DNA of 32,000 nucleotides from an uncultured candidate division Zixibacteria bacterium (GTDB lineage: Bacteria > Zixibacteria > MSB-5A5 > UBA10806 > 4484-95), in NCBI GenBank assembly GCA_963668625.2, contig CAXXKA010000008.1, positions 1,007,747-1,039,746 on the forward strand, in the 5' to 3' direction. This document shows positions 7,968 to 32,000 of the stretch, in pieces (the first letter of the stretch is position 1; each line of letters begins with the position of its first letter). Below the pieces are notes generated by a model. That model ran no database searches, was not told the DNA's origin, and saw nothing but the letters and a program-made list of their open reading frames with translations. The position numbers and the translations under genes are program-made.

Positions 7968-8016
7968 AGGAATCATAATCCTCGTGTCCGGGGTTTGAGT
8001 CCCTGCTCCGCTACTT
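7968..8016 (+). repeat. Orphan copy of the 3' half of the tRNA(CAT) gene (att-like direct repeat of 21842-21890)
   Basis: aggaatcataatcctcgtgtccggggtttgagtccctgctccgctactt matches 21842-21890 at 47/49. Both differences fall in the T-loop (ttcaag versus tttgag). No 5' half of a tRNA lies upstream. Confidence 0.8.
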
Positions 8017-10758: not shown

Positions 10759-10860
10759 ACGAGCGGCATAGATGGTAAAAAAAAACCTAGAAGTTTTATA
10801 ACTATCTGAGAGGAAAGCAGGATTATGGAATTTCTCGCCAGGCTGGATTTCCCGCCGACA

Positions 10861-11439: not shown

Positions 11440-11443
11440 ATTC

Positions 11444-14820: not shown

Positions 14821-14896
14821 AGTCTTTGTAGATAAGAAAAATCGGTTTAAAAATCAAGTTATAAACATATTATAGATAAATTCCAACACTGTCTAT

Positions 14897-16042: not shown

Positions 16043-17308
16043 CACTAGTGTCCGGGCTTTGAGGCTGGCTTGACAGACCTCCTATAATAAGGGTGTAAAC
16101 GCTAATTATAACACCTTTGTTTACAGGAGGTTAAAAATGCAAGGGAAGGTTACAATACTTCGCCAGATAACGCAAATGATTTCTCGATACGATTTCCAAA
16201 AAGCAGTTTCGACTGGCAAAGGGCGGCATTTCACGGTTTCTTTCGGCTACTGGTCGCACCTGGTGGCGATGATATTCGGGCAATTATCGGAGCAGCAATC
16301 GCTGCGTGATCTGGTCTTGAATCTTTCCCGTCAGGCGCATAGGTTTTACCATCTGGGTATGTCAAAGATACGCCGTTCGACTTTTTCGGATGCCAACAAT
16401 CATCGGCCCTCGGCAATATACGAGAACTTGTTTTACATATTATTGAATCGTTACGGTTGTCATTTTCAAGGCAAAAACCGGAAGCTGGGGAATAAATTAT
16501 ACTCAGTTGATTCGACGGTCATAGATTTGTGTCTGGGGTTATTTTATTGGGCTAAATTCAGAACGACCAAGGCCGGTGTCAAGCTTCATGTCAGGTTAAA
16601 CCATGATGGTTACATCCCTGATTTTGCGGTTGTCACCAATGCCAATATTCATGATTCCAGAGTCAGGAAGATGTTCAATTTACCGGCTGGCAGTATCGTG
16701 ACTTTCGACAAAGGCTACAATGACTACAGTCTTTTCAAGTTATTAAATGATAAGGGGATAATCTTTGTCACGCGGCAGAAGAATAACGCTAAATACAAAG
16801 TAATCAAACGGTGTAGAACTAATCGTAAGCAAGGAGTCACCTCCGATCATTGGATTGAATTTACCGGTTTTTACTCCAAGCAAAAATGTTCGATTAGGCT
16901 GAGACGAATCCGTTATATCGATAAAGAAACCGGTAAAGTTTATGTATTCCTGACCAATGATTTCAAACATGCCGCCTCGACTATTGCCGACATTTATAAG
17001 CAGCGCTGGCAGATAGAATTGTTTTTTAAAGCGTTAAAACAGAACCTTGTGATCAAGACTTTCTGGGGTACCTCCAAGAACGCAGTATATTCCCAGATCT
17101 GGGTGGCTTTGATAATCTATTTGTTAATGAGCGCGCTGAAATACAAATACAAAATATCGGCCTCAGTTGGAAAGTTAATTCAGAGAATCCGGTCATTCGT
17201 GTTTGAAAAAGATGATGTCCTGAGATTCCTTAAAGACCAAATACCAATCCCAATACAAATCGCTCAAACATCTCAAATTAACCTGTCCCTAAAGGCCGGA
17301 CACTAGTG
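16043..17308 (+). mobile_element. IS4-family insertion sequence (1266 bp) with 22-bp terminal inverted repeats and a 9-bp target site duplication
   Basis: Left end CACTAGTGTCCGGGCTTTGAGG, right end (reverse complement) CACTAGTGTCCGGCCTTTAGGG, 19/22 identical. The direct repeat ATTTAGTTT lies at 16034-16042 and 17309-17317. Confidence 0.92.
16137..17306 (+). CDS. IS4-family DDE transposase
   Basis: 389 aa with a DDE_Tnp_1-like core (VDSTVIDL..., FDKGYNDY...) and the IS4 Y-x2-R-x3-E-x6-K signature (YKQRWQIELFFKALKQ). The ORF ends inside the right IR. Confidence 0.9.
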   Translation: MQGKVTILRQITQMISRYDFQKAVSTGKGRHFTVSFGYWSHLVAMIFGQLSEQQSLRDLVLNLSRQAHRFYHLGMSKIRRSTFSDANNHRPSAIYENLFYILLNRYGCHFQGKNRKLGNKLYSVDSTVIDLCLGLFYWAKFRTTKAGVKLHVRLNHDGYIPDFAVVTNANIHDSRVRKMFNLPAGSIVTFDKGYNDYSLFKLLNDKGIIFVTRQKNNAKYKVIKRCRTNRKQGVTSDHWIEFTGFYSKQKCSIRLRRIRYIDKETGKVYVFLTNDFKHAASTIADIYKQRWQIELFFKALKQNLVIKTFWGTSKNAVYSQIWVALIIYLLMSALKYKYKISASVGKLIQRIRSFVFEKDDVLRFLKDQIPIPIQIAQTSQINLSLKAGH

Positions 17309-17626
17309 ATTTAGTTTATCTGTCAATTTCCAGAAGAGATAAACATTAGCTGCATGCAATAAAATACTCATGAAACTATGAAAGTAAGCGTTAACGCCGA
17401 ATATAAAATACCATAGGAAATTAGCCCACAAACTCAAAGGCCTGAAATAACCGTAAATAATGCTTCTTTGAAAGAATATCTCCGGATTACTTAATGCTAT
17501 CTTGGAATAAGATAAACACAACCAATCATCTCCTATAAATTGACGGCTTAAAAACGGCAGATAAAATACGATAGCTAGTGAAACGATAAAATAAACAGCA
17601 TGCTTTTCTACACTTAGTGTTTTCAT
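17309..17626 (-). pseudogene. N-terminal part of the IS-disrupted GT-C glycosyltransferase
   Basis: MKTLSVEKHAVYFIVSLAIVFYLPF...IGDDW...YFRPLSLWANFLWYFIFGVNAYFHSFMSILLHAANVYLFWKL is typical of the first TM helices and loop of ArnT/PMT_2-type enzymes. The annotated stop (17303-17305) lies inside the IS inverted repeat. Confidence 0.75.
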
Positions 17627-17846
17627 TAGAGAGCCTCTCCAATCTCCGGAATACACCGATAAAGCAAGATTATAATTCAGGTATTTTTCAACACCATGTT
17701 ATAGAGAATGTAAGGCGCGTTCTTTCTACTATAGTATAAGTGTTAACAATAGTCGATTTATGTATGATATTATAATTCGGTATTTCCCGTACCGATTCCG
17801 CACTATTATAATTGCATAAAGGAAAACTCGGATGCGAGAAATAAAT

Positions 17847-20105: not shown

Positions 20106-20190
20106 AGCGTGCCAATATATATGAAATTTCTTTTTATGGAAATGGTTTATGAAAAAAAATAATAATATATACGATTATGAACAACCGTCT

Positions 20191-21654
20191 TTACTTTATC
20201 AGTATCATGCGACGGGTATTAGTATAATCGCGACTTGTCATCCTGTAGAAATACGAACCGGATGCAACCGGTTTACCCGATTGTGCCCGACCATTCCAAT
20301 CGAACGCGTAATGTCCCGGCAATTTATACTCATCCAATACCGTTTTTACGAGTTGTCCCCGGATATTAAATATCCGTATCAGCACCGGCCCGGCTTTCGA
20401 AACATTATAAGATATTTTTGTAGAACCATTGAACGGATTAGGATAATTTGCCTCGAGGGAGGTGGCAACAGGCAAAGAATTTCCCGTAACACCTACATCA
20501 TTTAATATATCATCCAAAGCGGTTATGAAACTCTCCATCTCGGTCATGGTACCGGTGGATACCCTGATATGATTCTGCAGTCCCCAGCCGGTTCGCACAC
20601 TCACGCCTCGTTGGTTGAGTAAATTGGCCAATTGAGCCGAATCGAATTCGGTTTCAAGTAAAAAGAAATTAGTTTGCGAGGGCACATATCTCATCTCGTT
20701 CTGATCGAAATAATCGAAACAGTAGGCTTTGGCCTCGTTATTTAGCGTAACCGTATTATCTATATGTTCCTGATCCTCGAGCGCGGCGATAGCTGCAGCT
20801 TGCGACAGCCTCGTAATCGAGGCGTATATCAGCCACGATTGCATCTGCGAGATCAACTCTTGCCTTCCGATAGCATAACCGATACGCAATCCTGCCAGAC
20901 CGTATACTTTTGAAAACGTTCTTATAACGATGACTTTCCGATCATCCTGAACTAACCGTATTGCGGTCTCATACGAGGGATCATCCACGTACTCGTGATA
21001 CGCCTCATCGATAATGGCAACGACCTGCGAGGGCAAGTTATCGACAAAATCCTCGATATCATCGGCGGAAAGTACCCTGCCGGTCGGATTGTTGGGATTA
21101 GTAATAATCACCGCCTGGGTAGAGCTATCCACTCGGGAGGCCATATCATCCAGATCGATATCGTAATTACCATCGAGATAAGAATAATGGATATCAGCGC
21201 CTATCAAATCGGCATCCGAGGGGAACTGGCTGTATGAGGGATAGGGTGAAACTATATTATTGCCGCCGGTAATAAAAGACAGAGCCGCCAGGCGCAGGAT
21301 TTCGGTGGCGCCACAACCGGCTATCACCTGGCCAGAGTTAACATCATGACTATTGGCCAGATAGTTTTTAAGCCCGCCGGCATACCAGTCGGGGTAGCGA
21401 TGGCTCATATCGATATTGTCGGAAATCGCTTGCATCGCCAGCGGAGATGGCCCCAGCGAGTTCTCGTTATAACAGAGCCTGTTAACATAATCGGTTAATA
21501 CCGGGAAATCATCCCGTCCGGTGTGATTCTCGGAAAAAATCGGCGCGGTATTAAATAGCGAAAAGGCGGCGCTTCCAGCAACCAGCCCTAAAAACTTACG
21601 CCTCGATAACTCTTCCCTGATATTACCGGTGGTGTGTTTCTTATCCATATACAC
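20191..21654 (-). CDS. HisC-like class I/II PLP aminotransferase with N-terminal twin-arginine (Tat) signal and C-terminal T9SS sorting domain
   Basis: SRRKFLGLVAGSAAFSLF fits the Tat consensus. The aminotransferase core has ITNPNNPTG, IIDEAYHEY and RTFSKVYGLAGLRIGYAIG (PLP lysine motif). The last 88 aa (20194-20457) are NYPNPFNGSTKISYNV...GSYFYRMTSRDYTNTRRMILIK. Confidence 0.85.
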   Translation of the reverse strand: MYMDKKHTTGNIREELSRRKFLGLVAGSAAFSLFNTAPIFSENHTGRDDFPVLTDYVNRLCYNENSLGPSPLAMQAISDNIDMSHRYPDWYAGGLKNYLANSHDVNSGQVIAGCGATEILRLAALSFITGGNNIVSPYPSYSQFPSDADLIGADIHYSYLDGNYDIDLDDMASRVDSSTQAVIITNPNNPTGRVLSADDIEDFVDNLPSQVVAIIDEAYHEYVDDPSYETAIRLVQDDRKVIVIRTFSKVYGLAGLRIGYAIGRQELISQMQSWLIYASITRLSQAAAIAALEDQEHIDNTVTLNNEAKAYCFDYFDQNEMRYVPSQTNFFLLETEFDSAQLANLLNQRGVSVRTGWGLQNHIRVSTGTMTEMESFITALDDILNDVGVTGNSLPVATSLEANYPNPFNGSTKISYNVSKAGPVLIRIFNIRGQLVKTVLDEYKLPGHYAFDWNGRAQSGKPVASGSYFYRMTSRDYTNTRRMILIK

Positions 21655-21774
21655 CTCCGTAAAATAAATAGATAATACTGACTATGTCCTGTTATATAAC
21701 AAGTTACCAGTCGTTAAAATATAACATTTTCGGGGAAATAGTCAAGATATATGCCGATATAGTAAAAGAAGTGC

Positions 21775-21802
21775 TTGACAATCGGGTTTTTAGAAATAAA
21801 TT
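21775..21802 (+). promoter_or_regulatory. Sigma-70-like promoter for the tRNA(CAT) gene
   Basis: TTGACA (21775-21780), a 16-nt spacer, then TAAATT (21797-21802), about 12 nt before the tRNA 5' end. Confidence 0.55.
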
Positions 21803-21813
21803 TGTGTGTCTGT

Positions 21814-21887
21814 GGCGGAGTAGCTCAGTCGGTTAGAGCAGAGGAATCATAATCCTCGTGTCCGGGGTTCAAGTCCCTGCTCCGCTA
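21814..21887 (+). tRNA. tRNA with CAT anticodon (elongator Met, or Ile2 if lysidine-modified); integration target
   Basis: Cloverleaf: GGCGGAG TA GCTC AGTCGGTTA GAGC A GAGGA ATCATAA TCCTC GTGTC CGGGG TTCAAGT CCCTG CTCCGCT A. It is 74 nt with no encoded CCA. The anticodon stem lacks the three G-C pairs of initiator tRNA. Confidence 0.93.
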
Positions 21888-21986
21888 CTTTTTATCTTGC
21901 TGAACGACAATATGTTATAGGCCTCCTTCTTCAGGTTGGATTTATCACTTTTTATCCCACGGTAACATAGCGGTAACAAAATAGCT

Positions 21987-22017
21987 AAAAAAAGACCGCC
22001 CAAATACAAGGGCGGTC
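21987..22017 (-). terminator. Rho-independent terminator downstream of int (minus strand)
   Basis: The minus strand reads GACCGCCC-ttgtattt-GGGCGGTC followed by TTTTTTT. It begins about 27 nt after the int stop codon. Confidence 0.75.
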
Positions 22018-22043
22018 AACTTAATACTATATCGGCTACTGTA

Positions 22044-23099
22044 CTAATACGGGAGTTTACTTAGCATTTCGTCTTTGTGATCAGGTGCCAAATGTGAGTA
22101 TATCATTGTCGTCTCAATCTGGGCATGTCCAAGAAGCTTTTGCAACGTGAATATTGGCACATTAACCATTGCCAAATGGCTGGCAAACGTATGCCTGAAT
22201 GTATGGCATGTAGCCCACGGCAGGCCTATCGAAGTGAGAGTCTTTGATATGAATCTGCCTACCCACCATTCTCGCCACTGCGGTTGCTCCTTGCCATGGC
22301 TATCAAATGGCCCAAACACTTTACCATCGCTTCTTCGCTTCATCGATTTCAACATGTCCCGAAGTCCCGGTGAGTACTTGAATGGTAGTATACGATTACG
22401 TTTACCCTTGGCATTGATCCCTCTTATGACAAGCTGGTTTCTTTTAAAATCGATATCGTCCCAGGTTAACGAAAGCGCTTCACCTAACCGTGTTCCAGTA
22501 CCCAGATAGAAATCAACTAACTCCGCAAAGGATGTATCCTTAAATTTATCCTTCACCCTGCTGATCTCTTCCAAGCTCAGGTATCGTGGGTACTCTGACT
22601 GCGGCACTCTAATGTACCGGATTTTATCTAACGGGTTTTTATCCAGCATCTCCCATCGGACAGCTGTATTAAATGCAACTTTCAGATGACGGAATTCGAG
22701 GTTTACGGTTGATGGCGCAATTCCATTATCTAATCTGTGTTTCCGATAGTTCTCCATCGTCAAAGGCCGTATCGAACGGATTTCCTTATTACCAACAAAT
22801 TCAAGCAAATGCTGAAGTATTCTACGTTCACGTATTACCGTACGTGGTGCCTTCACCTGATTTGAATGATCCAAATACTCATCGATAAACTGACTCAACT
22901 TTATAACCTCATCATTCGACTCAATTGGTTTTCCCTCAGCCAATAGAGAGCAAACTTGATGAAAGACTTTATCAGCGGTACGTTTATCACAATTGCCGAT
23001 TTTAAAGGTTTTCTGCACACCATTCTCCCAATAAAAGATCCGCCAACAGTGCTTACCAGATTTATACTTCCGCTTAACCAGAGAAGGCACCTCAATCAC
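22044..23099 (-). CDS. int: Tyrosine site-specific recombinase (phage-type integrase)
   Basis: Catalytic signature: GTGTRLGEAL (Arg), HTFRHTFASHL (H-x-x-R), LLGHAQIETTMIYSHL (His and Tyr). It lies next to a tRNA gene. Confidence 0.93.
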   Translation of the reverse strand: MIEVPSLVKRKYKSGKHCWRIFYWENGVQKTFKIGNCDKRTADKVFHQVCSLLAEGKPIESNDEVIKLSQFIDEYLDHSNQVKAPRTVIRERRILQHLLEFVGNKEIRSIRPLTMENYRKHRLDNGIAPSTVNLEFRHLKVAFNTAVRWEMLDKNPLDKIRYIRVPQSEYPRYLSLEEISRVKDKFKDTSFAELVDFYLGTGTRLGEALSLTWDDIDFKRNQLVIRGINAKGKRNRILPFKYSPGLRDMLKSMKRRSDGKVFGPFDSHGKEQPQWREWWVGRFISKTLTSIGLPWATCHTFRHTFASHLAMVNVPIFTLQKLLGHAQIETTMIYSHLAPDHKDEMLSKLPY

Positions 23100-23322
23100 C
23101 TCCTTTCGATCTCATAGGATAGCTTACAGTTATTTTCTCTTCGCATGATTTTACGTATTCAGTAACCTGGCCCCAGGTAAACTGAACAGAGTTACGGCTA
23201 AAGCGTGTACACGCGATCTTGCCTGATTTGACCCAGCGCAGCACTGTATTACGATGTACGCTGAGAGCCTCGGCTACCTCGTTTACCGTTTTAGTCAATT
23301 TGCCATCGGGCCAGGTGTTCAT
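23092..23322 (-). CDS. xis: Excisionase/AlpA-like HTH DNA-binding protein
   Basis: VNEVAEALSVHRNTVLRWVKSGKIACTRF fits an HTH_17-type motif. It is 76 aa and its stop overlaps the int start by 8 nt. Confidence 0.8.
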   Translation of the reverse strand: MNTWPDGKLTKTVNEVAEALSVHRNTVLRWVKSGKIACTRFSRNSVQFTWGQVTEYVKSCEEKITVSYPMRSKGGD

Positions 23323-23389
23323 TTTTCTTATACCTAAAAAATTACCTCCCGGTCATCATGGTAAATGACTGGGAGGATTTATAAAACGC

Positions 23390-23869
23390 CTATCCTTTTA
23401 AGCGATTGTCCTCATCGGAATCGTGGTTATCTTCATCGTCTGACACAATTTGATTTGCCCGAAATAGAAATTCATGGGCTTTAGCTACATGATCAGCGAG
23501 ATTTCTATACCCCGAAATGGCAATATCAAACATTCGCTTTAATTCTGCTGGCTGATTTTCCCCGCTTTGGGATAGTACAACACCAAGATGATTTATGAAT
23601 TCATGCCGAGTGTCAAAAAAGCCAGTCGCAACACTTACATAATCATAAGCATCGCTTGGAGAATCACTATTATTGGCTTTGTCCTTTAATCCGCCTAGGA
23701 ATTCTCCTATATCATAGTCGTATTTGGGGAAATCGATGAACTGCACTCCTTCAACAACTATCAGCGCATCTGCTCTCTTGATCGAATCCAGTACATGATT
23801 ATAGCAATCATTGCAGATATCTGGATTACAGAAGTAGTCGCGAACTAAAATTAAATTATCTGTATTCAT
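23390..23869 (-). CDS. Hypothetical acidic protein (159 aa), island cargo
   Basis: Long ORF in the same orientation as its neighbours, with no recognisable family. It is very D/E-rich with an acidic tail (SDDEDNHDSDEDN). Residues 31-50 resemble residues 38-57 of the 176-aa protein. Confidence 0.6.
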   Translation of the reverse strand: MNTDNLILVRDYFCNPDICNDCYNHVLDSIKRADALIVVEGVQFIDFPKYDYDIGEFLGGLKDKANNSDSPSDAYDYVSVATGFFDTRHEFINHLGVVLSQSGENQPAELKRMFDIAISGYRNLADHVAKAHEFLFRANQIVSDDEDNHDSDEDNRLKG

Positions 23870-23961
23870 TTAAAATACCTTTCCTGGTTTGTTTTCCTGC
23901 GCCAGCTAGAAAGATGGCACAGGTAGGTTAATACTAATGCTGTTAGTTTCTAGGCGACCCT

Positions 23962-24921
23962 TTACATTCCATCGTCAGCCATTATGATGATAGCGTCCAG
24001 GGTATAGCTATAAATCGCGCGGAAGCAATCAATGGCATTTCCCCATAATCTTTCAAAATATTCGTCGCTCAAACTATCATCATTAAGAAATTGATATTCT
24101 ACTATATACAGCAGTAGCATTGTCCAGATAGAGAGGTACCGGAATGATAAGAAGGTATAATCTCCTAAGGTTTTTTTTGAACGAAGTACACCGGCCCTCA
24201 AGCGAAGATGTTCCAGATCGTTCAAAACATACGTTAGGAACCCGAGAGAAAGCACCCACTTATTACCTTTAGCCTCGATAATAATATCCTGTTCAACCAT
24301 GGCTTGATACCGCTGCTTTACTTCCGGACCACCCTGTAAAAGCCCGTTGAATGCATCCAGCGGAATTGCTAAGGCAGGAGGGTCATCATCTTCAAGAAAC
24401 TTCTTTTTATCGAAGTCCTCTCCCGGTGGAATCTTTAAAATTAATTCCATTTCCTCAAGCACAACATCTTTCGTCCCTGGGGCGTTAATCCCAAACGCTA
24501 TTTCCAGCGCATTTAGAAGGTGTTTGAAAATATTATGGAAGTAAGGCAGATGGGCTTTTAATAGAAGTCGATTTGCCTCAACTGCATCTTCGGTGTCAGC
24601 CGTAGTGTTAGAAAAGTCGAATGATGTCAGATAGTTAAACCAAGAACGCAGATAGCTTAGAGATGTTTTGGCATAACAAACCCTATCTTCGTATGTAGGC
24701 TCAGCGTCATTAGAGGTATACCTATCCAGTTCATTCTCAACATACTCCCCTAATTTGGGGGCCGAGACGAATTCTTCCGAGCCAACCTCAAATATCAGGC
24801 CATTTTCAATTAATGCCTGGCGGAGGTCATTTAAATCGGCATTTTTCCAGCCGAGCTTTTCAGTAAATAGTCTCAAGGCTGCCGGAAATTCGTTTGTATT
24901 AGAGTTATTCATGTTTATCAC
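23962..24921 (-). CDS. Hypothetical protein (319 aa), island cargo
   Basis: Long ORF with no recognisable motif. It has a hydrophobic stretch near the C-terminus (FLSFRYLSIWTMLLLYIVEY). The start could be 24921 or 24912. Confidence 0.6.
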   Translation of the reverse strand: MINMNNSNTNEFPAALRLFTEKLGWKNADLNDLRQALIENGLIFEVGSEEFVSAPKLGEYVENELDRYTSNDAEPTYEDRVCYAKTSLSYLRSWFNYLTSFDFSNTTADTEDAVEANRLLLKAHLPYFHNIFKHLLNALEIAFGINAPGTKDVVLEEMELILKIPPGEDFDKKKFLEDDDPPALAIPLDAFNGLLQGGPEVKQRYQAMVEQDIIIEAKGNKWVLSLGFLTYVLNDLEHLRLRAGVLRSKKTLGDYTFLSFRYLSIWTMLLLYIVEYQFLNDDSLSDEYFERLWGNAIDCFRAIYSYTLDAIIIMADDGM

Positions 24922-24977
24922 TTTATTGTTTTGCCCGCAGCCGGATAGAACGGCGATGCGGGCGGGTTAACATTTTG

Positions 24978-25508
24978 CTAATCTTCAGACTCTGTGTCTG
25001 AATCAGCGTTGTCTACACCGGCTTTTATGCCGAGCTCTTTCAGCCGTTTCTCGACTTTTTCCAATGTTATTTTGTTTGAATCAATCATTACAGGCAGATT
25101 ATCCTGACGCTCTTTGAGTTTCCTTTTCTTCTCAGGATCAGGTTCAGTCGCTATTATTTCAGGAAGATTCTGAAGCTCAGATTCATGTTCAGCATTTAGG
25201 CGTGTCAGTCGAGTAAACTGGCCACGAAGAATGCCTGGATTGTCAGTGGTTTCTATAGTGGTACGGGATGACGGATTAGCTTTTTCGGCTTGGCGTTTAT
25301 CTTTATCGATTTTCTGGAGTTCCTTGTTTTTCTCTAGGAATTCAGGGACATCGATATAGAAAACACCACCGACATTAATTAGGGAATCACATCTTCGAGC
25401 CTGGCGAGTCAGCTTCTTAAGATCAGCGCCAATCATTTCGGCATAGGCTGAGAGAAGCATATTGTCGCCAAAAACTAATCCGATATTTAATTTGCTATCG
25501 TTTGACAT
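24978..25508 (-). CDS. Hypothetical protein (176 aa) with N-terminal excisionase-like wHTH, charged coiled region and acidic tail
   Basis: SAYAEMIGADLKKLTRQARRCDSLINVGGVFYIDVPEFLEK follows the same helix-turn-helix plus wing pattern as the two HTH_17 proteins in this window. The tail is DNADSDTESED. GGAGGAAAAG lies upstream of the ATG. Confidence 0.6.
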   Translation of the reverse strand: MSNDSKLNIGLVFGDNMLLSAYAEMIGADLKKLTRQARRCDSLINVGGVFYIDVPEFLEKNKELQKIDKDKRQAEKANPSSRTTIETTDNPGILRGQFTRLTRLNAEHESELQNLPEIIATEPDPEKKRKLKERQDNLPVMIDSNKITLEKVEKRLKELGIKAGVDNADSDTESED

Positions 25509-25866
25509 TTCTTTTCCTCCTTTCCTACCGTTGATAAAATCAACCGCAATTTTAAAAACGGATTATTTATGTTAGCGATTTTAAACGATCGATTGATGCC
25601 AGTTAGCATTGGCTCGTTTTTGGTAGTTATTAAGATTTTGCCCAATTAAACACAGCGTATTGGGTTCGCTATAATAGTAGGTTGTATGCAACCCTTATGA
25701 ATAAAAAACTGTTTAATTGGTGTGAATATATTTGCTATCTTTATTTAATTCATTGAGTTATAGGTGTCAAATGATTGAGGAATATTGCGGCGAGAAATAA
25801 AAATATCCGAAAATTACCTTAAGGTTGCGTAACCCAAGATAGCTTCAAATTTAGATATAGATTTTT

Positions 25867-26535
25867 TTATATTTCTCTAATTGTTATTTGAAATTTGGGA
25901 ATATAATATCCATGGTCCGACCACTTGTAAAATGGGTCTTCAGTGATTTCAAAGCAATTTTTAAGGACTCCTCTTATTTTTGAAATATTGGATTTAAGAG
26001 TCCCCCGCTTCATTGCATTTTGTATTTTCCTTGCTTTTTTTTCATCAGCAGTAAACATTAAAGTTGCCCACCATTTTCCTATTTTTTCCCCTTTTCCTTT
26101 ACGGAATCCTAATTTAGAGTAATGGACTTTTTTAGTTTTACTACCTGCAATAATACATACCCTTTCATAATTCGAATCAACAATAAATTTTACATTTTGC
26201 CATTTTGATACGTGCGGGAATTTAAGAAATTTTTCTTTTTGCTTTGAAGTTTTAAGTGATAATTTTTCTATATTTCTTGAAATACTTTCGATAATTTCAG
26301 ATTTATCCGAATCAGACAATCTGGTATAAGTTGGGAAGGAATCTTTATTCCATAAGTGATTTACAGAATATTCTAATTGCTGTTTAGATGGAGGATGAAT
26401 ATTTATACCGGCTATTATTCGATTTTTTATTTTTTTTAATATACCCACATTTTCTTGCGCAGCATAGCGTATTGGAACATCTGCTAAATGAAAATGTACA
26501 ACGTTTTTCTTGAAGGAAATTAAATACAAAGGCAA
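25867..26535 (-). CDS. Hypothetical basic protein (222 aa) in AT-rich cargo; 5' end uncertain
   Basis: Long ORF in visibly AT-rich DNA. Its only upstream start is TTG at 26535, and the frame stays open up to the IS3 junction at 26604. No family recognised. Confidence 0.5.
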   Translation of the reverse strand: MPLYLISFKKNVVHFHLADVPIRYAAQENVGILKKIKNRIIAGINIHPPSKQQLEYSVNHLWNKDSFPTYTRLSDSDKSEIIESISRNIEKLSLKTSKQKEKFLKFPHVSKWQNVKFIVDSNYERVCIIAGSKTKKVHYSKLGFRKGKGEKIGKWWATLMFTADEKKARKIQNAMKRGTLKSNISKIRGVLKNCFEITEDPFYKWSDHGYYIPKFQITIREI

Positions 26536-26619
26536 TAATTCATCGGATGTTTTATTTTGTATCGAAGATTTATATGCATCCTCTGTTAGCTTCCCCCCAT
26601 TGTTTGGACAGTAATTTAG

Positions 26620-27498
26620 CTAAAATAAGGTGGAATTTCTAAGTATTAGTCCATTATTTTTCTGTTTAATCGATTCCTTTTTTGAATTTAAATTATAAAC
26701 CTCATAAGGCGTCTTGCCGTTTAAGGCCTGATGGAAACGTTCGGTGTTGTAGAATTCGAAATACCTCTTCAAACCGAGGTAAGCCTCCGCCGGCGTCTGG
26801 TAATCGTGAAGATAAACCTCCTCGTACTTGACCGATCTCCACAGACGCTCGACAAAAATATTGTCAAGATACCGACCGCGACCGTCCATGCTGATAGCGA
26901 TCCGCTTGTCTTGCAGTACACCGGTGAAATCCTTGTCGGTAAACTGTGTTCCCTGATCGCTGTTGAATATCTCCGGCTGTTTGCCATCCAACGATTCCTC
27001 CAATGCCTCCACGCAGAAAGAGCTCTCAAGAGTATTGGACAAACGCCAGGCAAGAACGTAACGCGAGAACCAATCAATCACTGCCGCCAGATAGAGAAAG
27101 CCCCGGCTAAGACGAATATACGTGATATCGGCGCTCCAGACCTGGTCAACATGATCAATCAGGACATCGCGTAAAAGATACGGATATATCTTGTTAGACG
27201 GACAAGGCTTGCTCGTATTTGGTTTAGGGTAAACAGCTTGAAGACCCATAATCCTCATCAGACGTTCAACCCGCTTGTGATTTATATCATATCCCTGAGA
27301 CTTTAGACAGAGTGTCATCTTAGGACTGCCGTAAAACGGGGTCCTGGTATATTGATCGTCAAGCAGACGCATAAGTGTCAGGTTCAAATCGCTTTCCCCA
27401 GTAGGCCGGTAGTAGTAGCTTGAACGGGGAAGCCCCAAAAGCTGGCACTGACGGCTAATTGAAATGTCCGGGTTTGATCGTTCCACCAGATTCCTCAA
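26620..27498 (-). CDS. IS3-family transposase OrfB (rve/DDE integrase core)
   Basis: WSADITYI...NSDQGTQFT...ERLWRSVKYEEVY is typical of IS3 DDE cores. The frame is open upstream to the A-run (TAA AAA AAA GGA...). Confidence 0.9.
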   Translation of the reverse strand: MRNLVERSNPDISISRQCQLLGLPRSSYYYRPTGESDLNLTLMRLLDDQYTRTPFYGSPKMTLCLKSQGYDINHKRVERLMRIMGLQAVYPKPNTSKPCPSNKIYPYLLRDVLIDHVDQVWSADITYIRLSRGFLYLAAVIDWFSRYVLAWRLSNTLESSFCVEALEESLDGKQPEIFNSDQGTQFTDKDFTGVLQDKRIAISMDGRGRYLDNIFVERLWRSVKYEEVYLHDYQTPAEAYLGLKRYFEFYNTERFHQALNGKTPYEVYNLNSKKESIKQKNNGLILRNSTLF

Positions 27499-27502
27499 AT
27501 CC

Positions 27503-27787
27503 TCAGGCGAGACGCCCGCTCCTTTTTTTTAGAAATGCCAACTCCACCTGAAGCTTACCAATCTCCTGATAGAGAGCATCCATCCTGGCTTGCTCATCCT
27601 CCCGCAACTTGGCCTTGCCGTTAGAAAAGGCTTCCGGGAGAGACTGTAAAGCCTGCTTCTTCCACATACCAACCTGATTAGGGTGTACTTCGTATTCCGA
27701 GGCTATCTGATTAACGGTCTTCTGACCGCGAATGGCCTCTATGGCTACTTTTGCTTTAAGCTCCCCGCTGTATCGACTTCGCTTCAT
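27503..27787 (-). CDS. IS3-family transposase OrfA (HTH, leucine-zipper region)
   Basis: MKRSRYSGELKAKVAIEAIRGQKTVNQIASEYEVHPNQVGMWKKQ is a Transposase_8-like HTH. ATG at 27787. Confidence 0.9.
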   Translation of the reverse strand: MKRSRYSGELKAKVAIEAIRGQKTVNQIASEYEVHPNQVGMWKKQALQSLPEAFSNGKAKLREDEQARMDALYQEIGKLQVELAFLKKRSGRLA

Positions 27788-27812
27788 CAATTACCCTTTC
27801 TGGACATTTCTA

Positions 27813-28205
27813 CTAATTTAATACCACCTTAAACAATTGTCCAGTTTTTGGGGGAAACCTCACTGCTTCAGGCCATTTACATAGAAAACCTAATAAAGTA
27901 GCACGAAAAATATTTTTAAGAGCACTGTCATGGCAAGTTATTATTGCTTGATACAAATTAAAATAGATATTCCCTCTATCAATTTTCGCTATATACTTGC
28001 TATAATAGATAGGTAGGGAGTATTTAGTTATTGGAGGGGAAAGAATAATATCAAATAAATTATCTAAATCATCATTAAAATATCCGCGGTACAGCTTAGT
28101 CATATTAAAGTTGGTACATATATTATTTACAGGCTTAATTAATTCCATTCTTCTTTTTTCAGCCCATTTTTCAATATTAAATTCATTTTGCTTATCATTT
28201 TTCAT
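27813..28205 (-). CDS. Hypothetical protein (130 aa) in AT-rich cargo; last 10 codons come from the IS3 end
   Basis: The ORF crosses the IS junction at 27843/27844. Removing the IS gives the native end ...AVRFPPKTMGGS*. No family recognised. Confidence 0.5.
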   Translation of the reverse strand: MKNDKQNEFNIEKWAEKRRMELIKPVNNICTNFNMTKLYRGYFNDDLDNLFDIILSPPITKYSLPIYYSKYIAKIDRGNIYFNLYQAIITCHDSALKNIFRATLLGFLCKWPEAVRFPPKTGQLFKVVLN

Positions 28206-28690
28206 ACAAACCTAACCTTTTATATATTTAAACAGTAACAATAATATCTTAAAATAATATTTCAAAGAATAATATTGTTAGTTAACCACCTGAGACATTT
28301 AGTCTTTGATTTTAATGATCCGTTATTACATTCTTGGAAAGTCAAGATTTTTAAGAAACAGTAAGGCGGATAGGGATGGATATGGTATTGCATTTTATAT
28401 AACTAATTGTCTTTCAGGCGATTGCCAGGCAGTACTTTGGCTCCTATATTTAATCTCACCATCTTCCAACGACTTACGAGATCGCACAAACTGCTTTTAG
28501 ATACCCTGAAATATTTTAAGCCTCTGTGAAGGCAAATTTCGAATTGATGAAAATACACGCTAAAGAACGAAAAAAAATATCGGGCCCATATTTACGACTG
28601 GCGATGCAAACACGTCAGCTTCAACAACTTCTAATGGGTTTGTTAAGTATTTAACCTACTGAAAATAAATAAGTTATGGTATTTTTTTGC

Positions 28691-28719
28691 TTGACTTCGG
28701 AGACTAAAAAGGCTATATT
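28691..28719 (+). promoter_or_regulatory. Near-consensus sigma-70-like promoter for the rightward replication module
   Basis: TTGACT (28691-28696), a 17-nt spacer, then TATATT (28714-28719), about 130 nt upstream of the 75-aa ORF. Confidence 0.55.
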
Positions 28720-28848
28720 GAATTTGGTGGCCATAAAGCTTTTCGCATCACATCTTGGAAAATCCCAATCAATGAAATCATGGAAATAAATGATAAGGTA
28801 TGAATGTCATGCCTCTGTCAATAATTAAACATCAAATCAAAGTAGATT

Positions 28849-29076
28849 ATGAATACCAAAGACATGAATTATGCCGCTTACTTGCTGGCAAACAATCGTA
28901 AATTGGAAAGCTGTTATCCTGACGGACGAAAGTTCTGGTTTGTGTTTCCTGATGACGAGGAAGTAAAATTACTTACCCAAAAGTATTATCTAAATACCGG
29001 GCCAATAAATCCGCAGGACTTTGTAAACGCACAGAAGATATTGAAGAACCTGGTTAGAAACTTTCAACCAGCCTGA
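28849..29076 (+). CDS. Small hypothetical protein (75 aa), possibly DUF5659-like
   Basis: MNYAAYLLANNRKLESCYPDGRKFWFVFPDDEEVKLL...FVNAQKILKNLV matches my recollection of the DUF5659 pattern. It lies immediately upstream of the primase gene. Confidence 0.5.
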   Translation: MNTKDMNYAAYLLANNRKLESCYPDGRKFWFVFPDDEEVKLLTQKYYLNTGPINPQDFVNAQKILKNLVRNFQPA

Positions 29077-29159
29077 TAAAGGAATAACAAATATGAAAAC
29101 ATGCAATATTAATAAGGAGCTGTTAAACAGCTCGGCTCTTTTCATTAAAGAGCCACTAT

Positions 29160-31667
29160 ATGAAACCACAATCCATAGTAATTTTAATGAATCAAAAACT
29201 TATTCAAGAAGTATTCTCAACATTAAAGAAAGGAGAATTTATCAGGCTTGCCTGGGAAGATGAAAATGAAAAGTTCCATAAGACTGGAACACAAAATTAT
29301 GAACAATTCATATCAAAAGTAGATGAATTAAAATCCTTCCCTTATATTGCTAGTATTTGGTTTACCCCCAATCCCAGCAATTCACCATCATCACATACTC
29401 AGGATGATATTACCCGAGCCCACTGGGTATATGTCGATATTGATGATGTCTCCCCCGAAGAATTCCTACAAAAATACGATTATATCAAACCAACCTATAC
29501 TGTAGCCACCGGCCATGGAGTCCAGCTTTATTGGAAGTTGAAACGCCCCATAGCTATACCTAATGAACAATGGCAAGCCATAGAAAATGCAATAAAACGC
29601 AAATTCCATGGAGAAAAGGGTGAATCATGTTCATTGCTAAGGGTACCTGATACACCAAACCGCAAGCATCTTATTGAGAAGCATAGAAAAAAGGGCTATA
29701 CGGTTGAAACTAAATGTGAAGTCATTGGATTTTGTGATGAAGAATATGATCTTGATGATTTTATCGAAGCAGGTTTGGATATTGATAATCAGCCCACGGA
29801 GATCGTGACAAGCCCTACAGCTAAACGTTCTCTCGATGACCTGAAACGAATACGCCAGTATTGTCCAGCTATAAACGAAGCCTTTTTATCGATAGAAAAT
29901 AACAAAGGTAACGAAAAGACAATCGGTCATTACAAACGCCTGGCAGTAGCCAGCATGATAAAACATACAATCGATGATGAAAAATATCTGTTGAAATTAT
30001 TCAGCAAGGTATCTGATTTTGATCCTCAAAAAACTTTAAAGTATTACAGAAGTCTGGATAAATGGCCTTTTACCTGTGCAAAACTACAGGAAAAAGAACT
30101 ATGTAGTGAAACTTGCCAATTGATGACAGACCTCAACAAAAAAAGTCCTATAGTATTCGCATATCGCTCCGGTGTTCAATTGAAAACTACCGATACCTTA
30201 TTAAATGAAACCGAGAATGATAGTAGTTTCAAAGAGTTGATGAAGCGCGTAAAATCCATTGAAAACCCGGTAAATCAGGAAAAACTGATAAGCAAGGTTA
30301 TTGCCGAAACCGGCATAAACAAATCTTCTATCAACCGTTATATGAAAAAGATCAAAGTTCGAGATGATATTAAATCATACATCGTCAACGGTGAAGTTGA
30401 TCCCGTGAAAGCGGCGATATATATAATCAGGCAATACCAGCTAATGCGATATCAACAGGATTTCTATAAATATCAGGATGGAATATGGGAGCTTATGCCT
30501 CAGGAGGAAGTCGAGTCGTTAATTCATCACGAGATCAAACAGTATTCGGACAACCATACAATAAGCGAGGTCATAAATGCAGTCAAAAGAGAGGCTTTAA
30601 TTAAACCCAACACGGTTGATAAAGCCCAGGGTAAGTATTGGATAGCAGCCAGCAACGGATTATTAGATGCAGAAACGAAAGCTCTTCGCGATTTTACGCA
30701 GGAAGACTACAGGTTCATCAAAATGAACGCGAAATATAATGCGGCAGCTGATTGTCCTGTCTTTAAAGAATTTTTACGCGAGTTGTTCATGTACGACACT
30801 GATGCCGCTGATAAACGTAAACTCGTTCAGGAGATATTCGGCTATCTGCTGATACCCGACTACTCTCTCATAAAGAAGATGTTTTATTTCTACGGGCCGA
30901 AAGCTAACAACGGCAAATCATCGTTAATTGAAATCATACGATCAGTAATGGGGCCAGGGTATTTTGATAGTGTCCCCATGGATAAATTGAATGGATTTTT
31001 ATTGAAACGGCTGCAGGGAAAACATGCTAACGTCGTAGGTGACCAGGATGCGTATACGAAGGTGCCTGACGGCATATTGAAACAATTGATTGGCGGCATG
31101 GATGAAATCACAGCGGATGTGAAATACAAGGACGCTATTACGTTCACTAATTATGCGAGATTGATATTTGCCGTTAATAAACTGCCGTTTTCAGAAGCGA
31201 AAGACGAAGGTTATTTTACCCGAGCCGTAATCCTAACGTTCAATAACCAGTTTTTAATAAATCCTGATCGTAAGGATCACCGGCAAATGAAAGCCGACGT
31301 TGAGAAAATACAATACATAAAGGATAATGAAAAAGAAGGTATTCTCAACTGGATGCTGGAGGGTTTGAGCAGATTGCTGGCAAACAAGAAACTAACGATT
31401 CCCACTTCATCAGAATCAGCTGTGAAGGATTACAAAACAAACAACAACAGTATATTGTTATTTGTTGGCGATAACTGTCAGCTAGGACCTACTTTCCAAG
31501 TGAGTCAATCTGAGTTGTATACGAATTACAGAGGCTGGTGCCAGGACCAGGGATTTAAAGGCTATGCGAATTCGGTCACGTTTTATGATTTGCTTGAGAG
31601 GGAGTACAAGGTTGTTCGACAGAGAACCAAAAATTCACGACGTCTTGTAGGAATTAAATTAACCTGA
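29160..31667 (+). CDS. Bifunctional primase-polymerase (AEP prim-pol) / SF3 helicase (P4 alpha / D5 family) replication protein
   Basis: N-terminus: VYVDIDD, TGHGVQLYWKL and LLRVPDTPNRKH (AEP catalytic motifs). C-terminus: Walker A FYGPKANNGKSS, then GKHANVVGDQDAY...LKQLIGGMDEITADVKYKDAITFTNYARLIFAVNKLP...FTRAVILTFNNQF, matching the P4-family primase C-terminal domain. Confidence 0.9.
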   Translation: MKPQSIVILMNQKLIQEVFSTLKKGEFIRLAWEDENEKFHKTGTQNYEQFISKVDELKSFPYIASIWFTPNPSNSPSSHTQDDITRAHWVYVDIDDVSPEEFLQKYDYIKPTYTVATGHGVQLYWKLKRPIAIPNEQWQAIENAIKRKFHGEKGESCSLLRVPDTPNRKHLIEKHRKKGYTVETKCEVIGFCDEEYDLDDFIEAGLDIDNQPTEIVTSPTAKRSLDDLKRIRQYCPAINEAFLSIENNKGNEKTIGHYKRLAVASMIKHTIDDEKYLLKLFSKVSDFDPQKTLKYYRSLDKWPFTCAKLQEKELCSETCQLMTDLNKKSPIVFAYRSGVQLKTTDTLLNETENDSSFKELMKRVKSIENPVNQEKLISKVIAETGINKSSINRYMKKIKVRDDIKSYIVNGEVDPVKAAIYIIRQYQLMRYQQDFYKYQDGIWELMPQEEVESLIHHEIKQYSDNHTISEVINAVKREALIKPNTVDKAQGKYWIAASNGLLDAETKALRDFTQEDYRFIKMNAKYNAAADCPVFKEFLRELFMYDTDAADKRKLVQEIFGYLLIPDYSLIKKMFYFYGPKANNGKSSLIEIIRSVMGPGYFDSVPMDKLNGFLLKRLQGKHANVVGDQDAYTKVPDGILKQLIGGMDEITADVKYKDAITFTNYARLIFAVNKLPFSEAKDEGYFTRAVILTFNNQFLINPDRKDHRQMKADVEKIQYIKDNEKEGILNWMLEGLSRLLANKKLTIPTSSESAVKDYKTNNNSILLFVGDNCQLGPTFQVSQSELYTNYRGWCQDQGFKGYANSVTFYDLLEREYKVVRQRTKNSRRLVGIKLT

Positions 31668-31670
31668 TTT

Positions 31671-31904
31671 TGTCACCTTTGTCACCCTCTGTCACCGCGT
31701 AAGTCTATGTGTATCAACAGAGATGACAAAATGACAAGAAAATAGCCTAAAAAAGTTTTACAGGGAAAAAATAAAAAAATTTTGTAAATGAAAATAGTTT
31801 TTAAACCGTAATTTAACATCGTTTTGTCACCCGACCAGCTAACCAGTTATGTATTATTAAGATAAGGGAGTTGGGATGGGTGACAAACGATGACAAAGGT
31901 GACA
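31671..31904. repeat. Iteron field: TGTCACC repeats in both orientations flanking an AT-rich segment (putative origin of replication)
   Basis: Forward TGTCACC at 31671, 31680, 31690 and 31825. Reverse GGTGACA at 31879 and 31898, with degenerate (A/G)ATGACA at 31723, 31731 and 31890. An A/T-rich stretch spans 31741-31820. The field begins 4 nt after the primase-helicase stop. Confidence 0.75.
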
Positions 31905-32000
31905 AAATAATTACCATGACATACAGAAAGAAATTCATTCCTCATATAAATCTGAGGAAAGCATTACATCATCCAAGATTGGACACCATCGAAGCAGAAC

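What the first reader, a model, noticed from the sequence alone, without database searches (positions are those of the whole stretch)
21842..32000. Satellite-like integrative element at tRNA(CAT): an int-xis module and a prim-pol/SF3 helicase plus iterons bracket about 5 kb of unknown cargo
The order on the element is as follows. First the tRNA (attL core at 21842-21890), CGGTAACA repeats and a terminator. Then int and xis, which overlap by 8 nt, and three unknown genes, all leftward. Next an AT-rich pair of unknown ORFs interrupted by an IS3. Then a divergent region with a near-consensus promoter. Finally a small DUF-like gene, an 835-aa AEP primase / P4-alpha-like helicase, and a TGTCACC iteron field. 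No capsid, terminase, tail or lysis genes appear in the 10 kb visible. That resembles P4-like satellites, PICI-like islands or integrative mobilisable elements more than a full prophage. Such elements are known carriers of anti-phage and anti-defence cargo between their integration and replication modules. That position is exactly where the unrecognisable genes sit here.
Basis: partly seen in the sequence, partly recalled or inferred. Interest (0 to 1): 0.7.

Follow-up and report, generated by a model that had tools for sequence, protein, structure and literature searches.

The report
Self-replicating genomic island at tRNA-Met
This is the left 10 kb of a real but ordinary kind of mobile island (integrase, excisionase, its own primase-helicase and replication origin) inserted at a tRNA-Met gene; its unknown genes recur in related elements and so are not cargo, and one of them is broken by an insertion sequence.

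Summary
The described features are nearly all present: tRNA-Met(CAT), CGGTAACA repeats, terminator, int/xis, three leftward unknown genes, an AT-rich gene split by an IS3, DUF5659, an 835-aa AEP-primase/SF3-helicase, and a TGTCACC iteron origin. No phage structural genes are visible.

The element belongs to a rare family, with 12-24 homologues among 5.8 billion proteins and none in IMG/VR. Members sit at tRNA-Met, tRNA-Leu or tmRNA genes in T9SS-bearing (FCB-group) bacteria.

Comparison with six relatives changes the interpretation. The "5 kb of unknown cargo" is shared family backbone: paralogous small proteins and a recurrent 350-aa gene at the head of the leftward genes. The variable cargo lies downstream of the origin: type I R-M, Druantia, GmrSD, and a NACHT/Cap4-domain protein. 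In this copy that position is beyond base 32000.

This copy lacks the HTH_3 regulator seen in four relatives and carries an IS3, so its control region looks damaged.

The 49-mer att repeat does recur in the window, at 7968-8016. That is upstream of the tRNA, and it looks like the right end of a second, related element.

Verdict: a tycheposon/PICI-like integrative replicative island, a new member of a known kind. The helper-phage satellite lifestyle is unproven.

The parts
21814..21888 (+). tRNA-Met(CAT), the integration target (attL side)
   Evidence: ARAGORN and Rfam RF00005. The same tRNA with the same neighbouring aminotransferase gene precedes a 78%-identical int in L023.
21842..21890 (+). 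49-bp identity block (candidate att core), from the anticodon stem to 2 nt past the tRNA 3' end
   Evidence: A second copy lies at 7968-8016 with 2 mismatches, against 0 expected by chance.
21960..21978 (+). Two CGGTAACA repeats 11 bp apart, candidate arm-type integrase sites (P' arm)
   Evidence: There are only 3 copies in the window, all next to the 49-mers. Both copies and their spacing are conserved in the L023 attL.
21994..22017 (-). Intrinsic terminator after int
   Evidence: Conserved in L023.
22044..23099 (-). Tyrosine integrase
   Evidence: PF00589, Int_N and SAM-like domains; phrog_1. Identity is 78% to the L023 int and 46% to the L001 and L025 ints.
23092..23322 (-). Excisionase-type HTH protein (xis)
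   Evidence: PF12728 HTH_17; TIGR01764 at 37 bits against a cut-off of 28.8. Identity is 79% to the L023 protein.
23390..23869 (-). ORF159, a family-specific backbone protein of unknown function
   Evidence: Homologues lie at the same position in L001, L004, L005, L008, L023 and L024. Only 7 homologues exist in 5.8e9 proteins. The AF2 model has pLDDT 84.5 and no PDB fold match.
23962..24921 (-). ORF319: N-terminal 146 aa paralogous to the ORF159 family, with a unique C-terminal extension
   Evidence: hhalign probability 83%, E 9.5e-6. No family hits.
24978..25508 (-). ORF176, a second family-specific backbone protein
   Evidence: Its N-terminal 97 aa are 74% identical to the L025 97-aa gene. 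It is 32% identical to L001 4740-5609.
25867..26583 (-). C-terminal part of a ~353-aa AT-rich gene cut by the IS3
   Evidence: phmmer: residue 3 of this part aligns to residue 93 of the 378-aa and 358-aa homologues. A 349-aa homologue occupies the same slot in L025.
26584..27862 (-). IS3-family insertion sequence (orfA 27503-27790, orfB 26620-27498); ends approximate
   Evidence: NF033516 at 259 bits; rve and HTH_21. Terminal repeats TGTTAGCTTCCCCCC / TGAGGTTTCCCCC were read.
27863..28205 (-). N-terminal part of the IS-split gene
   Evidence: Its residues 83-114 align to residues 59-90 of P0022 and P0023.
28206..28848 (.). 643-bp non-coding divergent region; the HTH_3 regulator found here in four relatives is absent
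   Evidence: No tblastn trace of the HTH_3 gene. L001, L004, L005 and L025 carry it in this interval. A promoter-like TTGACT-17-TATATT site lies at 28691-28719.
28849..29076 (+). DUF5659 small protein, always directly upstream of the primase
   Evidence: PF18903. Identity is 69-77% in L001, L004, L005, L008 and L009.
29160..31667 (+). Pri-Rep: AEP primase, D5_N, SF3 helicase and a winged-helix C-terminal domain (the true start may be the ATG at 29187)
   Evidence: D5_N, DUF5906 and Pox_D5; TIGR01613 at 173 bits. The best PDB sequence match is 7OLA, SaPI5 PriRep5. The N-terminal model matches RepB' and S-2L PrimPol.
31667..31908 (.). Replication origin: three direct TGTCACC iterons, an 18%-GC centre, and an inverted iteron set (two exact TGTCACC plus one TGTCATC variant)
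   Evidence: (I1). The same layout is conserved in L001, L002 and L005.
31880..32000 (+). 5' end of a conserved small ORF (about 74 aa in L002), cut by the window end
   Evidence: tblastn gives 82% identity to the L002 74-aa gene.
7968..8016 (+). Second copy of the 49-mer (a tRNA 3' fragment), probably the attR of a different, related element lying to its left
   Evidence: To its left are a terminator (stem about 7788-7809 plus T-run) and three 11-bp-phased CGGTAACA-like repeats at about 7833-7862. Host core genes lie to its right.

Best explanation
Bases 21814-32000 are the tRNA-proximal half of an integrative, self-replicating genomic island. It works like PICIs and tycheposons.

**Integration and excision**
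- A tyrosine integrase recombines a 49-bp block shared with the 3' half of tRNA-Met(CAT). I infer that it is guided by 11-bp-phased CGGTAACA arm sites.
- An HTH_17 excisionase supplies directionality (inferred).
- The leftward gene string runs: 353-aa gene, ORF176, ORF319, ORF159, xis, int. I infer that it forms one operon.

**Replication**
- Replication genes run rightward from a divergent control region.
- After excision, the AEP-primase/SF3-helicase would bind the TGTCACC iterons through its C-terminal winged-helix domain. The iterons sit just past its own stop codon and flank an 18%-GC centre. The protein would melt this centre, load itself and prime synthesis. This is inferred from the SaPI Rep mechanism.

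**Cargo and state of this copy**
- In the family, variable defence cargo follows the origin. Here that position is beyond the window.
- This copy has an IS3 in the first leftward gene and lacks the HTH_3 regulator. Its control is probably impaired.
- How the element transfers between cells is unknown.
For: **Domains**
- Integrase, excisionase, D5_N/DUF5906/Pox_D5 and TIGR01613.
- AEP fold of the N-terminus: 3H20 at E 1.3e-7 and 6ZP9 at E 4.4e-7 with TMt 0.72. DIDD, GHG and RVPDTxN residues are invariant.
- The best PDB sequence match is SaPI5 PriRep5, 7OLA.

**Origin**
- Iterons are enriched 6-fold and clustered, with an inverted set across an 18%-GC centre.
- The same iteron layout recurs in L001, L002 and L005. 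L004, whose primase C-terminus is divergent, has GTGAAAG repeats instead.
- This layout matches the SaPI ori as described in PMC9371898.

**Att site**
- The 49-mer repeat; CGGTAACA is found only beside the 49-mers.
- attL is conserved with L023, at the same tRNA and beside the same host gene.

**Family context**
- The backbone order is shared in L001, L004, L005, L023, L024 and L025.
- Cargo downstream of the origin: type I R-M in L001 and L024, Druantia plus PDC-S11 in L002, and GmrSD with MmeI/Eco57I-type genes in L023.
- The window's own contig encodes the conserved 171-aa gene that follows the origin in relatives (P0088).
- No phage structural hits and no IMG/VR relatives.
Against: - No attR was seen for this element. 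The only second 49-mer is upstream of the tRNA.
- No attR could be found in any relative within the sequence held. Element ends and sizes are therefore unproven, and the downstream defence genes could lie outside the mobile unit.
- The HTH_3 regulator and the sigma54-type AAA+ protein seen in relatives are absent here, and an IS3 disrupts a backbone gene. This copy may no longer be mobile.
- In L002 the closest relative of the primase (89% identical) is 5'-truncated and has no int nearby. It is clearly a fixed remnant.
- No transfer function (relaxase, terS or capsid) was recognised anywhere.
- Function is inferred from homology only.
Confidence: 0.7

Rival explanations
1. It is a true phage satellite (PICI-like or P4-like) that depends on a helper phage for packaging and transfer.
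For: - It has int, an HTH_17 excisionase/AlpA-like protein and a Pri-Rep. These are three of the five PICI core components listed in PMC10085698.
- The SaPI-type origin lies right after rep.
- No structural genes are visible.
Against: - No terS, capsid-morphogenesis, psu, sid or delta homologue appears in the window or within 10 kb downstream in relatives.
- PMC10085698 treats three-core-gene "Type C" hits as ambiguous.
- The family is absent from 2.9 million IMG/VR contigs.
- If the downstream genes belong to the elements, L001 and L023 span more than 19 kb without ending. That exceeds the median PICI size of 9.5 kb.
Confidence: 0.15
2. It is a decayed, immobile remnant of such an island, retained as part of a tRNA-linked genomic island.
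For: - An IS3 splits the first leftward gene.
- The HTH_3 regulator present in four relatives is missing, with 643 bp of non-coding DNA in its place.
- No downstream attR is visible.
- The L002 relative is a truncated remnant.
- A probable remnant end of another element lies at 7968-8016.
Against: - int, xis, DUF5659 and the primase-helicase are full-length compared with homologues.
- The iterons and arm repeats are intact.
- The IS looks complete and so may be a recent insertion.
- The conserved 171-aa gene is present further along the same contig.
Confidence: 0.3
3. It is the left end of a complete temperate prophage whose structural genes lie beyond base 32000.
For: int-xis next to a tRNA, and a phage-type primase (PHROG DNA primase families).
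Against: - In L002, DNA 87% identical to the primase-origin region runs on into a 74-aa gene, a 170-aa gene, UDG, PDC-S11 and Druantia.
- L001, L004, L005, L023, L024 and L025 likewise show no structural genes within 5-10 kb.
- There are no IMG/VR relatives.
Confidence: 0.04
4. It is an integrative mobilisable element (NBU-like) moved by a conjugative helper.
For: - The host has T9SS-sorted proteins and so probably belongs to the FCB group. From general knowledge, tRNA-integrating mobilisable elements with an integrase and a primase-like gene (NBU1) are common in that group.
Against: - No relaxase or mobilisation domain was detected in the window or in any relative (and the precomputed Pfam columns).
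- An oriT cannot be recognised by sequence alone.
Confidence: 0.1

Closest known systems
Tycheposons (Hackl et al., bioRxiv 10.1101/2020.12.28.424599)
   Same: - tRNA-specific tyrosine integrase, excisionase and a primase/helicase replication module, plus a cargo module.
- No capsid or conjugation genes.
- Partial tRNA copies and remnants accumulate beside tRNAs.
   Different: - Tycheposons were defined in marine picocyanobacteria as one gene-sharing group. Homology to their hallmark profiles was not tested here.
- This family has its own backbone: ORF159/ORF176 paralogues, DUF5659, a sigma54-type AAA+ protein and a conserved 160-aa gene.
- Its hosts carry T9SS.
PICIs / SaPIs, with the SaPI5 PriRep5 replication module (PMC10085698; PMC9371898, PDB 7OLA)
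   Same: - int, an HTH regulator/excisionase and Pri-Rep.
- The helicase part is the best PDB sequence match, at E 1e-12.
- The origin is built from iterons directly after the rep ORF, with an AT-rich centre and iterons in opposite orientation.
   Different: - No terS or capsid-morphogenesis gene was seen.
- Sequence similarity is only distant.
- If the defence genes downstream of the origin in relatives belong to the elements, the elements are larger than PICIs.
Satellite phage P4 (alpha primase-helicase, ori/crr iterons)
   Same: - The C-terminal half matches TIGR01613, "phage/plasmid primase, P4 family".
- It integrates at a tRNA, replicates by itself and carries defence genes.
- From general knowledge, P4 alpha binds short repeats in ori and crr, and the iteron TGTCACC resembles the P4 octamer.
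   Different: - No psu, sid, delta or ash/epsilon homologue was found.
- The N-terminal primase has the AEP fold.
- The hosts are not enterobacteria.
RSF1010 RepB' and cyanophage S-2L PrimPol (PDB 3H20, 3H25, 6ZP9)
   Same: The predicted fold of residues about 10-210 matches these AEP catalytic domains, with E 1e-7 and TMt 0.66-0.72.
   Different: Sequence identity is 12-13%. Here the AEP domain is fused to a D5-type SF3 helicase and a winged-helix domain.

Membership tests
PICI (SatelliteFinder definition, PMC10085698) | Integrase | tested here: met
   PF00589 at E 1e-23.
PICI (SatelliteFinder definition, PMC10085698) | Regulation module (alpA, merR or stl homologue) | tested here: inconclusive
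   An HTH_17/TIGR01764 excisionase-type protein lies next to int. It was not shown to be an AlpA-type regulator. The HTH_3 regulator of relatives is absent.
PICI (SatelliteFinder definition, PMC10085698) | Primase-replicase | tested here: met
   D5_N, DUF5906 and TIGR01613, with best PDB match SaPI5 PriRep5.
PICI (SatelliteFinder definition, PMC10085698) | Small terminase and/or capsid-morphogenesis gene | tested here: not met
   None was found by PHROGs or Pfam in the visible 10 kb or in the genes downstream of the origin in L001, L002, L004 and L005. The unseen part of this copy remains untested.
P4-like satellite | Psu, Sid, Delta and Ash/epsilon hijacking genes | tested here: not met
   No PHROG or Pfam hit in the window or in relatives.
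P4-like satellite | Alpha-type primase-helicase | tested here: met
   TIGR01613 (P4-family primase C-terminal domain) at 173 bits against a cut-off of 108.7. The N-terminal primase has the AEP fold.
Tycheposon | tRNA-specific tyrosine integrase, excisionase and replication hallmark genes next to a full tRNA | tested here: met
Tycheposon | Distal partial tRNA bounding the element | not testable with these tools
   The window ends at 32000, and its contig is not retrievable. The only other 49-mer is upstream.
Tycheposon | Membership of the tycheposon gene-sharing cluster (hallmark profiles) | not tested
   The profiles are not available here.
Temperate prophage | Capsid, terminase, tail and lysis genes | tested here: not met
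   None in the window. None downstream in relatives.
Integrative mobilisable/conjugative element | Relaxase (and coupling protein or T4SS for an ICE) | tested here: not met
   No such Pfam domain in the window or in relatives.
AEP (archaeo-eukaryotic primase) superfamily | AEP catalytic fold with DxD, sxH and hhRhPGs.N-type motifs | tested here: met
   Foldseek hits to 3H20, 6ZP9 and 3H25 at E 1e-7 to 6e-5. D93-I-D95-D96 and H119 are invariant, and R161-V-P-D-T-x-N nearly so. No Pfam AEP model matched.
IS3 family (the insertion) | orfA/orfB with an rve DDE domain and terminal inverted repeats | tested here: met
   NF033516 at 259 bits; rve and HTH_21. The inverted repeats were read. A target duplication was not resolved.

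The most novel reading that the evidence does not exclude
The window shows one member of an undescribed family of tRNA- and tmRNA-targeting, self-replicating defence-island shuttles in FCB-group bacteria. The family backbone is:
- family-specific paralogous small proteins;
- a slot holding either a sigma54-type AAA+ protein (with a CARF-like Cas_NE0113 sensor domain in L001) or a ~350-aa unknown protein;
- HTH_3, DUF5659 and Pri-Rep;
- an iteron origin;
- a conserved 160-aa gene.

In this reading the backbone links a stress or infection signal to excision and replication, and carries interchangeable R-M, Druantia, GmrSD or NACHT-domain cargo.
Probability: 0.2. Interest if true: 0.55.

Novelty: new member of a known kind. 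Interest (0 to 1): 0.35.

Why it matters
- It adds a rare family of integrase-plus-primase islands, from poorly studied T9SS-bearing bacteria, to the PICI, P4 and tycheposon kind.
- In this family the defence cargo sits after the origin, not between the integration and replication modules.
- For annotation, the "unknown cargo" should be read as backbone.
- Any search for defence genes in this copy should look beyond base 32000.
- The SaPI-like origin next to an AEP-SF3 fusion is a clean test case for self-loading helicase initiation outside Firmicutes.

Tried and rejected
**Retrieving the rest of the contig.** Exact look-ups with the primase, P0001 and DUF5659 found nothing on record. The distal end could not be read.

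**Searching for attR in relatives.** Repeat and k-mer searches in L001, L004, L023 and L025 gave only chance-level 10-12-mers.

**Reading 8017-21813 as a mobile segment bounded by the two 49-mers.** Rejected for two reasons. The segment holds AlaRS, UvrD and PcrB. Also, integration into a + strand tRNA always leaves the complete tRNA on the left.

**PADLOC on all visible element proteins.** There were no hits apart from a weak HTH match for xis.

**ORF159 family against ORF176 family.** hhalign gave E 0.0046 and probability 7.6%. Paralogy is not established.

**In-frame rejoining of the IS-split gene.** The result depends on IS ends known only to within 1-2 nt. Homologue alignment settled the question instead.

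**Sigma54 promoter scan (TGGCAC-N5-TTGC).** One hit in L004 at 5868 (-) and none elsewhere.

**Pfam AEP models.** None matched the N-terminus.

**Literature.** There were no hits for DUF5659, for NBU1 with PrmN1, or for a combined search on defence islands, integrase, primase, tRNA and Bacteroidota.

Full report
**Observation**

- ARAGORN and Rfam place a tRNA-Met(CAT) at 21814-21888.
- After the tRNA come two CGGTAACA repeats, at 21960 and 21971, 11 bp apart. A minus-strand terminator follows at 21994-22017.
- int is at 22044-23099 (PF00589, E 1e-23). An excisionase-type HTH protein is at 23092-23322 (HTH_17, TIGR01764). Both read leftward, and the mechanical ORFs overlap by 8 nt.
- Three more leftward ORFs of 159, 319 and 176 aa have no Pfam, PHROG, PADLOC or NCBIfam match.
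- An IS3-family element (NF033516, 259 bits) lies at about 26584-27862, inside a stretch of 31-36% GC.
- Rightward genes start with DUF5659 at 28849-29076.
- The 835-aa protein at 29160-31667 has D5_N, DUF5906 and Pox_D5, and matches TIGR01613, "primase, P4 family".
- TGTCACC occurs 12 times in the window against 2.0 expected. Six copies lie within 31671-31904.
- No structural, packaging or lysis family matches any visible protein.
- The "near-consensus promoter" at 28691-28719 matches 10 of 12 positions. Matches of that quality are frequent here.

**The primase-helicase and the origin**

Pfam finds nothing in the N-terminal 340 residues. Nine homologues nevertheless keep D93-I-D-D96, G-H119-G and R-V-P-D-T-x-N.

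An AlphaFold model of residues 1-351 has mean pLDDT 74.6. It matches three solved structures:
- RSF1010 RepB' primase (3H20, E 1.3e-7);
- the cyanophage S-2L PrimPol AEP domain (6ZP9, E 4.4e-7, TMt 0.72);
- the RepB' catalytic domain (3H25, E 5.7e-5, TMt 0.66).

The AEP assignment is therefore supported.

By sequence, the closest solved structure to the helicase half is 7OLA. That entry is PriRep5 of the staphylococcal island SaPI5. The paper describing it says that SaPI Reps bind short iterons through a C-terminal winged-helix domain. It places the iterons immediately downstream of the rep ORF, with an AT-rich centre and at least two iterons on each side pointing in opposite directions (PMC9371898).

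The window shows this layout:
- three direct TGTCACC starting 4 nt after the stop codon;
- a centre of 18% GC at 31740-31829;
- an inverted set (two exact TGTCACC and one TGTCATC variant) at 31879-31908, 90% complementary to the first set.

The arrangement is conserved in L001, L002 and L005. L004 has a primase with a different C-terminus, and it has GTGAAAG repeats instead. That co-variation supports specific binding. I infer a self-loading initiator-helicase-primase acting on its own adjacent origin.

**The family**

The primase has only 12 relatives among 5.8 billion proteins. It has none in IMG/VR, one in the GTDB species genomes, and sixteen loci in JGI metagenomes, about five of which are clear relatives and the rest weak.

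Contexts were recovered for L001, L002, L004, L005, L023, L024 and L025. Where enough flanking sequence is present, the order is the same. The insertion target is known for four of them:
- tRNA-Leu(TAA) in L001 and L025;
- tmRNA in L004;
- tRNA-Met(CAT) in L023.

The shared gene order is:
- leftward: int, xis, and two to four small proteins of about 97-290 aa, most of them about 155-185 aa;
- then a larger gene, either a sigma54-type AAA+ protein (L001, L004, L005, L023) or a ~350-aa unknown protein (L025);
- rightward: an HTH_3 regulator, DUF5659, the primase-helicase, iterons, a 60-90-aa gene and a ~160-aa gene.

The ~160-aa gene is 64-80% identical across members.

L023 sits at the same site as the window. 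An aminotransferase gene with a T9SS sorting domain (52% aa identity) precedes the tRNA-Met. After the tRNA come the same two CGGTAACA repeats and the terminator, then an int 78% identical and a xis 79% identical.

Host genes in the window carry Por_Secre_tail domains, DUF3098 and a DUF4372-type transposase. From this I infer a host in the Fibrobacterota-Chlorobiota-Bacteroidota (FCB) group.

**What the "unknown cargo" is**

Three of the four genes in this interval have relatives in other family members, and the fourth is a paralogue of one of them:
- ORF159 has homologues at the same position in six relatives.
- The N-terminal 146 residues of ORF319 are a paralogue of that family (hhalign probability 83%, E 9.5e-6).
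- The N-terminal 97 residues of ORF176 are 74% identical to the corresponding L025 gene.
- The two AT-rich ORFs are one gene. The end of the upstream piece aligns to residues 59-90 of the 358-aa and 378-aa homologues, and the start of the downstream piece aligns to residue 93. A 349-aa homologue occupies the same slot in L025.

These genes are therefore shared family components, not variable cargo. Their function stays unknown. The ORF159 model is confident (pLDDT 84.5) and shows a small N-terminal alpha/beta domain plus three long helices, but it has no significant PDB match.

**Where the cargo is**

In relatives, the variable genes follow the ~160-aa gene:
- L001: type I R-M.
- L024: type I R-M with NucS-like and REase-ARP genes, and a 1960-aa NACHT/Cap4-nuclease protein.
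- L023: an MmeI/Eco57I-type enzyme, a T5orf172/ResIII protein and GmrSD.
- L005: PDDEXK and UvrD genes.
- L002: UDG, PDC-S11 and a Druantia DruF-DruL-DruE set, at E 5e-177, 6e-63 and 0.

L002 matches the window at 87% DNA identity from 29739 to 31983. The window's own contig encodes a 171-aa protein 84% identical to the L002 copy of the conserved gene (P0088). The element therefore continues past base 32000, and any defence cargo of this copy would lie there.

One caveat applies. No attR was found in any relative, so it is not proven that these downstream genes move with the elements.

**State of this copy**

- The HTH_3 regulator present in L001, L004, L005 and L025 leaves no trace in the window. 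Its place is taken by 643 bp of non-coding DNA.
- The first leftward gene is cut by an IS3.
- int, xis, DUF5659, the primase-helicase, the arm repeats and the iterons look intact.
- In L002 the primase is 5'-truncated and has no int nearby, so that copy is a fixed remnant. Members of this family do decay in place.

I put about 0.3 on this copy being immobile.

**The second 49-mer**

The 49-mer runs from the anticodon stem to 2 nt past the tRNA 3' end. It recurs at 7968-8016 with two mismatches in the T-loop. This copy is 13.8 kb upstream of the tRNA, in the same orientation.

To its left are a terminator and three 11-bp-phased CGGTAACA-like repeats. To its right are host core genes, including AlaRS.

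Integration into a + strand tRNA leaves the complete tRNA on the left and the fragment on the right. This site therefore cannot be the distal end of the element under study. It fits best as the attR of another element with a related integrase, lying left of 7968. That element's tRNA would be outside the window or lost.

**Comparison and verdict**

The element works like PICIs/SaPIs, P4 and tycheposons. It has site-specific integration at a tRNA, excision, and self-replication from an iteron origin next to a primase-helicase gene.

Membership in the named families is not established:
- It fails the PICI and P4 membership tests on the hijacking and packaging genes, at least in the part that is visible.
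- Membership of the tycheposon gene-sharing group could not be tested.

I file it as a new member (a rare family) of a known kind. Interest is moderate to low for the window itself. The family-level picture is the more interesting lead: a shared backbone with an alternative AAA+/350-aa slot and swappable defence cargo after the origin.

Noticed in passing
window 7780-8016: A second att-like site. It consists of a terminator, three 11-bp-phased CGGTAACA-like repeats, then a 49-bp tRNA-Met 3' fragment with 2 mismatches. It probably marks the right end of another related element or remnant lying left of 7968.
   Followed up: partly
window 3843-7717: A TrmB-type HTH protein (407 aa) is followed by a 774-aa ORF of 52-54% GC, against about 44% for the surroundings. 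The 774-aa ORF has no Pfam, NCBIfam or PADLOC match. The pair sits just inside the putative attR at 7968 and may be cargo of that other element.
   Followed up: partly
window 8165-8794: A 209-aa protein whose C-terminal 50 residues match the excisionase/MAD1-type HTH (NF047737 at E 4e-14, below that model's curated cut-off; TIGR01764). It lies directly right of the tRNA fragment and next to tRNA-Asp.
   Followed up: no
window 16137-17306: A second transposase (DDE_Tnp_1 plus DUF4372, IS4-like) lies among host core genes, in a 35-40% GC stretch between an unknown 382-aa ORF and UvrD.
   Followed up: no
L001 6601-8499: The sigma54-type AAA+ protein of this relative has an N-terminal Cas_NE0113 domain. 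From memory, this domain is CARF-like, as in RtcR. That hints the slot could sense a nucleotide signal.
   Followed up: no
L002 13172-22013: Downstream of a 5'-truncated primase (89% identical to the window's) lie UDG, a PDC-S11 candidate and a Druantia DruF/DruL/DruE set. No integrase is nearby. This looks like defence cargo retained after the element decayed.
   Followed up: partly
L004 5868 (-): The single good sigma54 promoter-like match (TGGCACACCTAATGCT) lies between the AAA+ gene and the small-ORF/xis/int genes. No equivalent was found in the other relatives.
   Followed up: partly
L003 1-13905: A 54%-identical primase sits in a different context. All genes are on one strand, including 973-aa and 914-aa proteins without Pfam hits and a cytosine DNA methylase. 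There is no integrase or tRNA in the 13.9 kb held. The replication module therefore also occurs outside this island family.
   Followed up: no
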